Assembly: GCA_021513715.1 (NCBI GenBank)
Contig: CP084167.1
Coordinates: 2,944,001 to 3,008,000 of the forward strand
DNA length: 64,000 bases
Source of the DNA: Candidatus Heimdallarchaeum endolithica
GTDB taxonomy: Archaea; Asgardarchaeota; Heimdallarchaeia; Heimdallarchaeales; Heimdallarchaeaceae
Reading direction: 5' to 3'
Positions 3,140 through 7,047 of the stretch are shown piece after piece; within the stretch, counting starts at the first letter, position 1, and each line of letters starts with the position of its first letter. The notes under the pieces were generated by a model that had not been told where the DNA came from, made no database searches, and saw nothing but the letters and a program-made list of their open reading frames with translations. The position numbers were made by a program, and so were the translations under genes.

Positions 3140-3418
3140 ATGTCCTCAGAAAAAAGAGTAGTTAGAAAGAAGAAGAAATTTGGTCTAGTCCTTGAGTTTG
3201 TACCAGTAGTTAGAGATCTATTTCCTGATGACGAAGTAAAAGAAAAAATACAAGGAGAAATAAAAAGAGCAAATGGGCTTACTCCTCAATTTCTTGCAGA
3301 AAAATATAATGTACGAATTAGTACAATCAAAAAAATGCTCAAAAAAGCAGAAGAAAATGGTATTGTGGAATGTGTTGCAAGCAATAAACGTACAAAAGTT
3401 TATCAAGCAAAGCAATAG
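3140..3418 (+). CDS. rps25e: Ribosomal protein eS25 (S25e)
   Basis: 92 aa, basic, winged-helix pattern LTPQFLAEKYNVRISTIKKMLKKAEENGIV...NKRTKVY. Confidence 0.8.
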   Translation: MSSEKRVVRKKKKFGLVLEFVPVVRDLFPDDEVKEKIQGEIKRANGLTPQFLAEKYNVRISTIKKMLKKAEENGIVECVASNKRTKVYQAKQ

Positions 3419-3485: not shown

Positions 3486-4460
3486 TTAATAAAATTCAAG
3501 ACTAGCTGGTGATGTGTCAGATATCCCTTGCTCTGTGACATAAAAGAGAATTTCTCGATCTGGAAAACGAGAACTATCGAATAATCTAGCTATTCTTGCA
3601 CTTCCTCTACTTTTTCTAAGAAAAATCCTTTGTTGTGGGCGATGAGCCCAAGCAAAACCTAAAGCAGGTTCTTCTCCGCTACCATAGAGAAATTGATCAA
3701 TTGCTGCAATAATTTGATTAGTAACAACAATAGCAACGTCATGATCTACAGCTATTTCTACAAGTTTTTCAGCTAAATTCATGATTTTTTGTTGTCTTTC
3801 CACTAGCCTATTTTTCCCAATGAACTCTGCGCGAAAATGTGCTGCTAGAGAGTCTATGATTACCAGTTTAATATTTTCTTCTGGTATAATTTTTTCTAGT
3901 TGATTAATGTACGCAAGCATTATATCGGTGTTAGACGTAGGTGCTACTAGTATGTTGTCTAAAACTTTTTTTGTATTCTTTATCCTGAAAGAAGCAATTT
4001 CTTCTATTCTTTGAGGAGAAAAAGTTCTCTCTGTATCTATAAAGAATGCTTTTCCCTCCAGTCCACCAAGATCTTTGGGTAGCTGTACATTAATACATAA
4101 TTGAAAGCAAAGTTGAGTTTTACCACTGCTGAAAGAACCAACTAATTCTGTTATTTCTCCTGTCCAAATACCACCATTAAGCATACTGTCAAATTCTTCT
4201 GAACCTGTAGTAATTCGTCCTCTCCTACGTTCAATTTCCAAAAACTCTGCTGCAGTATAAGGATGAATACCTAACTGTTCTTGTGCTTTTTGTATAATTA
4301 AAGCTGCGAGTTCTTCTTCTATTTCTAAATCTTCAGCAAGTTCTTTTTCACTCATAAGAGATAATTGTCCCAAAGAATAATCTTTTTGTTCCAATTTTTT
4401 TAATAGTTCTTTCTCAATTCCTTCAAGTTGAATCATAGTTGTCTGTTCAACAATGAACAT
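3486..4460 (-). CDS. radA: RadA/RAD51-family recombinase, divergent paralog
   Basis: N-terminal helical domain, RITTGS, Walker A GSFSSGKT, IDTE, Walker B LVIIDS, HFRAE, VTNQ; divergent L2 region PALGFAWAH. Confidence 0.85.
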   Translation of the reverse strand: MFIVEQTTMIQLEGIEKELLKKLEQKDYSLGQLSLMSEKELAEDLEIEEELAALIIQKAQEQLGIHPYTAAEFLEIERRRGRITTGSEEFDSMLNGGIWTGEITELVGSFSSGKTQLCFQLCINVQLPKDLGGLEGKAFFIDTERTFSPQRIEEIASFRIKNTKKVLDNILVAPTSNTDIMLAYINQLEKIIPEENIKLVIIDSLAAHFRAEFIGKNRLVERQQKIMNLAEKLVEIAVDHDVAIVVTNQIIAAIDQFLYGSGEEPALGFAWAHRPQQRIFLRKSRGSARIARLFDSSRFPDREILFYVTEQGISDTSPASLEFY

Positions 4461-6037: not shown

Positions 6038-7047
6038 TGTATACTCAACTCACATTGGTAACAAATAAATAGAAGTGGGTTACGTGGGTAAGTGATATAT
6101 TATGAACAAAAACGAACGTAACCTGGAGAAACTAAGAAAGATTGTGGTTAAAAAAGCTTTGGAAGGAGAGAAGATAAAAGAGGTAGCTCACAAGTATATG
6201 GTGAGTAGGAAGTTTGTGTATAAGTGGTTGAAGAGGTTCAGAGAGAACCCTGAAGGAGTATGGTGGAAAGATAGATCTTCCAGACCAAAAACTATACACA
6301 GGAAAGTAGATGAGGAGTTAAAAGAGAGGATAAGGGAGTTAAGAATAAAACAAGGAATGAATGTGGAGAAGATAGCTTATTTGTTGAAGAGAGAAGGAAA
6401 AGCACTCTCTCAGACGACAGTGACGAAAGTAATAAAAGAGTTAGGTCTTCCTTTATGGGTTAATAGAAAAAAGAGGAAAAGACCTCGATACAAGAGTTTT
6501 GAACGTCAAAAACCTAACGAACTCTGGCAAATAGATGTGAAAGGACCATTCTGGGTAGAAGAACAGGGACAACATCTCCACCTCATAACCTTGATAGACG
6601 ACCACTCACGATTCTGTCTGGGAGCTGAATTCCACCCTTTTGCACCAAAAAAAGAGCAGATAATAAGTTTGCTAGAGGAAGCAATAAAAGAGTACGGTTA
6701 CCCCGAGTCTATACTTACTGACAATGGAGCACTCTTCTCTTCCGTTAGAGGAGGAACAAGTACCTTCTCCCGTTGGTGTCAAACAGAAGGAATAAAGCAC
6801 ATCAGAGCTAGAGTTTTTCACCCTGAAACATGTGGAAAAGTAGAAAGACTACATGGGACAATCATCCGTGAGATGGAAAGATTAGGTCTAAAATACTGCA
6901 ACCCCGACCTCTCCTACTATCGCTCTTACTACAATTTTAGTCGTCCTCACCAATCTCTTAACTTCCTCACCCCAGGAGAAAGATTTATGAATCACCCCTA
7001 TGTTTCTCTAGTACCCAAAAGTGTAACCCAAGTCTATTGAGTAAACA
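6038..7047 (+). mobile_element. IS481-family insertion sequence, apparently intact (1010 bp)
   Basis: TGT...ACA ends; 26-bp imperfect terminal IRs (6038-6063 and 7022-7047, 19/26 match); 16-bp flanking direct repeat. Confidence 0.92.
6102..7040 (+). CDS. IS481-family DDE transposase
   Basis: HTH N-terminus (YKWLKRF...DRSSRP), WQID, IDDHSR, LTDNG, GKVERLH, YYNFSRPHQSL. Confidence 0.95.
   Translation: MNKNERNLEKLRKIVVKKALEGEKIKEVAHKYMVSRKFVYKWLKRFRENPEGVWWKDRSSRPKTIHRKVDEELKERIRELRIKQGMNVEKIAYLLKREGKALSQTTVTKVIKELGLPLWVNRKKRKRPRYKSFERQKPNELWQIDVKGPFWVEEQGQHLHLITLIDDHSRFCLGAEFHPFAPKKEQIISLLEEAIKEYGYPESILTDNGALFSSVRGGTSTFSRWCQTEGIKHIRARVFHPETCGKVERLHGTIIREMERLGLKYCNPDLSYYRSYYNFSRPHQSLNFLTPGERFMNHPYVSLVPKSVTQVY

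What the first reader, a model, noticed from the sequence alone, without database searches (positions are those of the whole stretch)
3486..4460. RadA paralog carrying the eukaryotic RAD51-paralog signature PALGxxWxH
Seen: full-length RadA architecture, but the post-L2 segment reads EEPALGFAWAHRPQQRIFL, and the ARAYN.DHQ motif is replaced by APTSNTDIM. Known: RadA, RAD51 and DMC1 have P(I/V)GGxxxAH here, whereas RAD51C, RAD51D and XRCC3 have PALGxxW (RAD51B AALGxxW). Inference: an Asgard forerunner of eukaryotic RAD51 mediator paralogs rather than the main recombinase.
Basis: partly seen in the sequence, partly recalled or inferred. Interest (0 to 1): 0.72.

Follow-up and report, generated by a model that had tools for sequence, protein, structure and literature searches.

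The report
Heimdall RadA resembling RAD51 paralogs
This gene is not the cell's main DNA-recombination enzyme but a second, conserved version found only in the archaea closest to eukaryotes, and it is the best archaeal candidate so far for the ancestor of the human RAD51 helper proteins (RAD51B/C/D, XRCC3), although that ancestry is likely rather than proven.

Summary
Observation confirmed: a 324-aa RadA-architecture protein with PALGFAWAHRP. The closed genome (probably Ca. Heimdallarchaeum endolithica) has a canonical radA and two further RadA-like genes elsewhere. The gene belongs to a single-copy family found in 77/83 Heimdallarchaeia genomes plus three from two other families (one Wukongarchaeum), and in none of 314 other Asgard genomes. 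Besides the motif, it shares A206, a small residue at 230 and loss of the FxxA phenylalanine with RAD51B/C/D/XRCC3, and it lacks the R235 equivalent. It keeps the RadA-type ATP cap (no lysine finger). In LG+C20 trees it is the archaeal group nearest the eukaryotic paralogs: 100/100 without RadB and motif, 82/91 with the whole selection region removed, 83/38 with one odd TACK RadA added. With RadB, a family+paralog clade is statistically tied (AU 0.18-0.53); paralogs+RAD51 is rejected (0.009). The APTSNTDIM change is genus-specific. Best reading: a filament-nucleating or capping mediator, sister or stem to the eukaryotic paralogs (~0.58). The scan noted this family before in other genomes; I found no paper making the link.

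The parts
3486..4460 (-). RadA-architecture paralog gene, 324 aa (start may be M9 at 4436); member of a Heimdallarchaeia/Wukong single-copy family
4272..4436 (-). N-terminal helical (HhH-type) domain, as in RadA, RAD51 and RAD51B/C/D/XRCC3; absent from RadB
   Evidence: model pLDDT ~84-92, helices 17-63; aligned to RadA NTD
4251..4262 (-). Linker PYTA: Pro replaces the Phe of the FxxA polymerisation motif (family P 106/120, A 120/120)
4116..4139 (-). Walker A GSFSSGKT (K114 invariant)
4029..4031 (-). Catalytic glutamate E144, invariant
3918..3944 (-). APTSNTDIM in place of the ARAYNxDHQ motif; lineage-specific, most of the family keeps R, N and H
3843..3845 (-). A206 after Walker B (RAD51 T225); Ala in the family and in RAD51B/C/D/XRCC3, mostly Thr/Ile/Met/Val in RadA, RAD51 and RadB
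3813..3815 (-). K216 at the position of RAD51 R235 (loop L1); Arg lost across the family, while R210 and R222 (RAD51 R229, R241) are invariant
3771..3773 (-). A230 (RAD51 L249); small residue shared with the eukaryotic paralogs, large hydrophobic in RadA, RAD51 and RadB
3636..3668 (-). PALGFAWAHRP, the post-L2 helix signature (L267 = RAD51 G288, W271 = RAD51 I292)
3576..3578 (-). D295, RadA/RAD51-type ATP-cap Asp (RAD51 D316); the paralogs RAD51B/C/D and RadB mostly have Lys here
   Evidence: PMC7614784

Best explanation
The gene is a specialised RadA duplicate that arose in the common ancestor of Heimdallarchaeia and Wukongarchaeia and whose lineage also gave rise, after further duplication in the eukaryotic stem, to RAD51B/C/D/XRCC3. 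Mechanism (inferred): it binds and probably hydrolyses ATP and binds ssDNA through the two conserved L1 arginines and the basic hairpin. It lacks the FxxA Phe that chains protomers and the R235 equivalent that holds the complementary strand, so it should neither form long homo-filaments nor exchange strands efficiently. It more likely sits at one end of a canonical RadA filament, accepting a RadA FxxA motif but offering none, and so nucleates, caps or stabilises the filament, as the XRCC3/RAD51C-containing complexes do. Shown: sequence features, copy number, distribution, tree position. Inferred: all biochemistry, the partner, and the vertical descent.
For: Canonical radA plus two other RadA-like genes elsewhere in the genome. 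Single-copy family in 77/83 class genomes and 3 genomes of two further families, none in 314 other Asgard genomes, with a clean gap of 78 versus 47.5 bits; this is the range expected for a gene inherited by eukaryotes. States shared by the family and the paralogs but not by RadA, RAD51 or RadB: A206, small 230, L267, W271, weakly E154, also small 270. The Pro-x-x-small linker resembles the sampled RAD51D (PTSG, PLNG) and some tentative RAD51B. Paralogs are 30-36% identical to the family but only 21-26% to RadB and share its N-terminal domain. Trees: family+paralogs 100/100 with RadB out and the motif dropped; 82/91 with long-branch decoys added and columns 206, 230, 235-281 dropped; the family stays adjacent to the paralogs with all groups present. 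RadB alone does not join the family (0% of bootstrap trees), so the family is not a general long-branch magnet. AU: family+paralogs not rejected (p 0.18, 0.53, 0.41); paralogs+RAD51 rejected (0.009) and family+Heimdall canonical RadA rejected (0.011). PDB paralogs, not selected by my profile, score 12-20 bits higher on a family profile lacking the motif than on a canonical profile. Roles of FxxA, R235 and capping: PMC13186703, PMC8682777, PMC7618403.
Against: In every free tree containing RadB, RadB attaches among or beside the paralogs and a branch of 85-100 / 99 support separates the family from them. Three states link paralogs to RadB and not to the family: residue 110, E180 and the lysine finger K295. 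Outside the motif cluster the family is no more identical to RAD51C/XRCC3 than canonical RadA is (34.5 vs 35.4%). One divergent TACK RadA (L154) slips between family and paralogs when the cluster is removed, and support falls to 83/38. The four or five strong sites may be one structurally coupled change. The eukaryotic rows were chosen with a profile of the motif region, and the family profile is the more permissive one (RecA also scores higher on it). No repair genes are conserved next to it. XRCC2, DMC1, aRadC and DPANN sequences were not in the trees, and Euryarchaeota were thinly sampled.
Confidence: 0.58

Rival explanations
1. Convergence. The family is an Asgard-only RadA duplicate that independently became a mediator-like subunit and reached the same W-centred packing; the eukaryotic paralogs come from the RadB side (classical RAD-beta) or from an unsampled lineage.
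For: Free trees put RadB with the paralogs. Lysine finger, E180 and residue 110 are shared by RadB and paralogs. L154 shows that paralog-like states can recur in an unrelated RadA. No identity excess outside the cluster. The literature groups RadB with the paralogs (PMC3637515).
Against: No other archaeal RadA derivative or RadB sampled has L267+W271. RadB lacks the N-terminal domain that four paralogs keep, is monophyletic on a long stem and does not contain the paralogs. Residual tree signal of 82/91 without the cluster. The family occurs just in the lineage nearest eukaryotes.
Confidence: 0.25
2. Shared ancestry but by lateral transfer: an early paralog gene moved from a proto-eukaryote into the Heimdall/Wukong ancestor, or the gene is a RadA/paralog chimera.
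For: Such transfers have been argued for other genes (PMC12395588). The protein is mosaic: paralog-like linker and post-L2 helix, RadA-like ATP cap and C-terminal hairpin.
Against: The paralogs sit inside or beside the family, not the reverse. The family is ~46% identical to RadA along the core, which fits a less derived state, and the shared sites are scattered (67, 206, 230, 266-271) rather than one block.
Confidence: 0.08
3. A second, self-sufficient recombinase or ssDNA-annealing ATPase with an altered polymerisation interface, not a mediator.
For: ATP site, D295, H273, two L1 arginines and the basic site-II residues R282, K283, R285, R292 are all kept (roles in PMC12360782); the fold is RadA/RAD51-like. 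A hydrophobic residue at 68 might partly replace the Phe.
Against: F86- and R235-equivalents are lost across the family and a Leu replaces a Gly that contacts ssDNA phosphate in Dmc1/RAD51 (PMC8682777). A canonical RadA is present in the same genomes checked.
Confidence: 0.15

Closest known systems
Archaeal RadA / eukaryotic RAD51-DMC1 (RAD-alpha recombinases)
   Same: Full architecture; ~46% core identity to Asgard RadA; passes the PRK04301 cut-off (315 vs 259); Walker motifs, catalytic Glu, ATP-cap Asp and His, basic hairpin; best structural matches (Z ~36).
   Different: No FxxA Phe, no R235 equivalent, PALGxxW instead of PxGGxxxAH, Ala at 206 and 230; below the TIGR02236 cut-off (281 vs 361); forms its own clade.
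Eukaryotic RAD51 paralogs RAD51B, RAD51C, RAD51D, XRCC3
   Same: N-terminal domain kept, FxxA lost, PALGxxW, A206, small 230 and 270; nearest archaeal group in the trees; some Kariarchaeaceae members read PALGESW exactly as RAD51C does.
   Different: No lysine finger, His rather than Glu at 180, RadA-type Walker A spacer and hairpin; only 30-36% identity; one gene per genome rather than a heterotetramer of paralogs.
Archaeal RadB (the known archaeal mediator)
   Same: Probably a non-recombinase helper beside RadA (inferred).
   Different: RadB lacks the N-terminal domain, has its Trp three positions later and a Lys finger; 24% identity; never joins the family in trees without the paralogs.
Published Asgard RadA duplicates (Matsuo et al. 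2025, PMC12722695; 18 Asgard groups in bioRxiv 2025.02.19.639135)
   Same: Both report several RadA clades in Heimdall-group archaea; this family may be among the sequences they grouped or removed.
   Different: In the parts read, neither relates any clade to RAD51B/C/D/XRCC3; the motif string is not in the Matsuo supplements.

Membership tests
Canonical RadA recombinase | N-terminal HhH domain + RecA-type ATPase with Walker A/B and catalytic Glu | tested here: met
Canonical RadA recombinase | FxxA polymerisation motif | tested here: not met
   PYTA; Pro in 106/120 homologs, no Phe among the five commonest residues
Canonical RadA recombinase | L1 Arg equivalent to RAD51 R235 and Gly-Gly after L2 | tested here: not met
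   K/D/E at 216, Leu at 267
Canonical RadA recombinase | Curated HMM cut-offs | tested here: inconclusive
   passes PRK04301 (315/259), fails TIGR02236 (281/361)
Canonical RadA recombinase | Forms filaments and catalyses strand exchange | not testable with these tools
   needs biochemistry
Eukaryotic RAD51 paralogs (B/C/D/XRCC3) | N-terminal domain retained, FxxA absent | tested here: met
   PMC13186703
Eukaryotic RAD51 paralogs (B/C/D/XRCC3) | PALGxxW after L2 and Ala after Walker B | tested here: met
Eukaryotic RAD51 paralogs (B/C/D/XRCC3) | Lysine finger at the RAD51 D316 position (reported for RAD51B, C, D, XRCC2) | tested here: not met
   D295 in 120/120; Lys in sampled C, B, D, not in sampled XRCC3; PMC7614784
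Eukaryotic RAD51 paralogs (B/C/D/XRCC3) | One clade with the paralogs to the exclusion of RadA and RadB | tested here: inconclusive
   100/100 and 82/91 without RadB, 83/38 with L154; AU 0.18, 0.53, 0.41 with RadB
Eukaryotic RAD51 paralogs (B/C/D/XRCC3) | Acts in a heteromeric complex that nucleates or caps recombinase filaments | not testable with these tools
   needs biochemistry or cryo-EM
RadB | No N-terminal domain (~230 aa) and TIGR02237 cut-off | tested here: not met
   324 aa with NTD; 98.6 vs 172.4 bits
RadB | Groups with RadB in trees | tested here: not met
   0 of 200 bootstrap trees
aRadC (KaiC-like RadA paralogs) | Short KaiC-like ATPase without N-terminal domain | tested here: not met
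   KaiC models score 23-28 bits against 226 for Rad51; no aRadC rows were put in the trees

The most novel reading that the evidence does not exclude
The recombinase/mediator split of eukaryotes predates eukaryotes: this Heimdall-Wukong family is the direct archaeal ortholog of the pre-duplication RAD51B/C/D/XRCC3 gene. The paralogs then descend from a RadA duplicate rather than from RadB, the RAD-beta grouping is a long-branch artefact, and this one protein is a living single-subunit model of the BCDX2/XRCC3 complexes.
Probability: 0.5. Interest if true: 0.82.

Novelty: new variant of a known kind. Interest (0 to 1): 0.68.

Why it matters
The origin of the five RAD51 paralogs (human tumour suppressors) is usually traced to RadB, which lacks the N-terminal domain four of them have. 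A full-length archaeal family confined to the closest relatives of eukaryotes, carrying the paralog signature, offers a concrete alternative ancestor. It also makes the question testable with two purified proteins from an enriched organism, and would add a DNA-repair component to the list of eukaryotic features already present in Heimdallarchaeia.

Tried and rejected
Only radA in the genome: rejected. APTSNTDIM as a family signature: rejected. RadB or aRadC membership: rejected. Paralogs as a sister of RAD51, and the family as a sister of Heimdall canonical RadA: rejected by AU in one 50-row set. Gene neighbourhood: lineage-specific housekeeping genes (rps25e in Heimdallarchaeaceae), no conserved repair partner seen by clustering and by eye; the Pfam check of neighbours failed on a coordinate error and was not repeated. 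Structure search lists only RadA/RAD51/Dmc1 chains in the top 50, uninformative on paralog kinship; ESM Atlas likewise. N-terminal domain profiles were mixed: RAD51C mostly preferred the family profile, RAD51B and D mostly the TACK one. A bacterial-type promoter scan showed nothing above chance. No complex prediction was run: RecA-fold pairs would pass by likeness to solved filaments. The 104-row careful tree did not finish (quick tree only). Ten literature searches found no paper linking an Asgard RadA clade to the paralogs; a 2026 preprint mentions a catalogued Asgard-eukaryote cluster dominated by RAD51D (PMC13734099), which I could not match to this family.

Full report
Observation. The ORF at 3486-4460 (-) encodes 324 aa. 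It has an N-terminal helical domain, Walker A, E144 and Walker B, and folds as a RadA/RAD51 protomer (pLDDT 86.9; best Z about 36 to RAD51/Dmc1). A profile of the motif region run against 1.84 billion proteins returned mostly PALGxxW proteins (133 of 149); those with names are RAD51C, RAD51D and XRCC3. My RAD51B labels rest on clustering and remain tentative.

Genome. The window lies in a closed 3.33-Mb genome whose congener is Ca. Heimdallarchaeum aukensis PM71 (95% identical ortholog); it is probably Ca. H. endolithica (inference from my own knowledge of genome sizes). It encodes three further RadA-like proteins and one RadB-like protein. The one at C1:3027541 is canonical, so the window gene is not the only or main recombinase.

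Family. The eight core motif residues are invariant in 120 of 120 homologs. A profile search of 400 Asgard genomes gave one strong match (78 bits or more) in 77 of 83 genomes of the class and in three genomes of two other families, one of them Wukongarchaeum yapensis; the other 314 genomes gave nothing above 47.5 bits. Members include Heimdallarchaeaceae, Kariarchaeaceae (some read PALGESW like RAD51C) and a large-genome family that I take to be Hodarchaeales. The APTSNTDIM change is confined to a few members; the family mostly keeps R, N and H there. Neighbouring genes differ by lineage and look like housekeeping genes.

Anatomy against RAD51 (human numbering from my own knowledge, alignment). 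Lost: F86 of FxxA (Pro), R235 of L1 (K/D/E), G288 (Leu), I292 (Trp). Kept: K133, E163, R229, R241, H294, D316 and the basic residues R303, K304, R306, K313. States shared with the paralogs and not with RadA, RAD51 or RadB: A206, small 230, L267, W271, weakly E154, and small 270. States shared by paralogs and RadB but not the family: 110, E180, K295; the last is the lysine finger described for RAD51B/C/D/XRCC2 (PMC7614784). Sixteen positions remain RadA-like. The protein is therefore intermediate: a RadA body with a paralog-type linker and post-L2 helix.

Trees (ATPase core, about 240 columns, LG+C20+F+G4 PMSF). With RadB, the order along the unrooted tree is canonical RadA+RAD51, then this family, then the paralogs with RadB inserted among them. 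Without RadB and without the motif, family+paralogs has 100/100, and the family is monophyletic in only 1% of bootstrap trees because the paralogs fall inside it. With long-branch decoys added and positions 206, 230 and 235-281 removed, support is 82/91, and 83/38 when one odd TACK RadA, L154, is included and slips between them. RadB alone is not drawn to the family. AU tests: family+paralogs p = 0.18, 0.53 (constrained tree 1.1 log units better) and 0.41; paralogs+RAD51 p = 0.009; family+Heimdall canonical RadA p = 0.011. Pairwise identity shows no excess to RAD51C/XRCC3 once the cluster is removed. Unselected PDB paralogs prefer a motif-free family profile by 12-20 bits, but that profile is also the more permissive. 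Rows left out or absent: XRCC2, DMC1, aRadC, DPANN, RecA, most Euryarchaeota, and the longest branches in the reduced sets.

Mechanism. FxxA chains RAD51 protomers and is absent from BCDX2 subunits, while XRCC3 still accepts the RAD51 motif (PMC13186703). R235 stabilises the complementary strand, and the Gly-Gly after L2 touches ssDNA phosphate (PMC8682777). XRCC3-containing complexes cap filaments (PMC7618403). A protein that keeps ATP and ssDNA contacts but lacks F86 and R235 is most simply a nucleating or capping subunit for a canonical RadA. This is inference; retention of the site-II residues (PMC12360782) leaves some DNA-pairing role open.

Known work. RadA duplication in Heimdall-group archaea is published (PMC12722695; bioRxiv 2025.02.19.639135), and the standard view derives the paralogs from the RadB lineage (PMC3637515). 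I found no paper tying an Asgard RadA clade to RAD51B/C/D/XRCC3, though a catalogue cluster dominated by RAD51D is mentioned. Earlier agents of this scan reached a similar reading on other genomes; those notes are not counted as support.

Verdict. A real, conserved RadA subfamily that is not a canonical recombinase, not RadB, and not a full member of the eukaryotic paralogs (lysine finger not met). It probably works like a paralog-type mediator and is more likely than not their archaeal sister or stem (0.58; convergence 0.25). New variant of a known kind; interest 0.68.

Noticed in passing
G000 C1:1878280-1879578 (L115; outside the window): A second RadA type, found only in the window's order among genomes searched, is sister to eukaryotic RAD51 in every tree (92-98 / 84-96). 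Both stems are long, so attraction is possible; it may match the Heimdall-only group 12 of bioRxiv 2025.02.19.639135.
   Followed up: partly
L154 (G306:C55:1892-2866): The only strong RadA-like hit in a lone-class Thermoproteota MAG has a lysine finger, Glu at 180 and a RAD51C-like stretch after Walker B, but a canonical post-L2 motif; paralog-like states can recur independently.
   Followed up: partly
G000 C1:122082-123176 (L116): A third, divergent RadA with atypical Walker A spacer on a long branch; earlier scan notes place it in a putative DNA-exchange regulon.
   Followed up: no
G000 C1:2168203-2168898 (L117): RadB-like gene is extremely divergent (branch 3.6, Asn after the Walker A Lys), which would fit relaxed need for RadB where this family is present; not tested.
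   Followed up: no
L093 / L140 (G302:C503): A contig of a 'Verrucomicrobiaceae' MAG carries an intron-containing eukaryotic RAD51 gene, and another a paralog-like gene: eukaryotic contamination.
   Followed up: partly
L036, L073, L086: Records titled Thorarchaeota, Bathyarchaeia and Hodarchaeota carry family members that match Heimdallarchaeaceae-, other Heimdallarchaeia- and Wukong-type copies; the titles are probably mislabels.
   Followed up: no
window 6102-7040 (+): Looks like an IS481/IS3-type DDE transposase inserted upstream, absent from the conserved rps25e - paralog - thermosome arrangement of relatives; judged by eye.
   Followed up: no
window 3140-3418 (+): rps25e converges on the paralog in 29 Heimdallarchaeaceae loci; in other lineages the neighbours look like Sua5/Kae1 and a small Arf-like GTPase, or IscA and EF-1beta (by eye).
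   Followed up: partly
G241:C1:2979398-2980309 (L105): The family member lies at the end of a 1964-aa open frame, possibly an assembly frameshift fusing it to a membrane protein gene.
   Followed up: no
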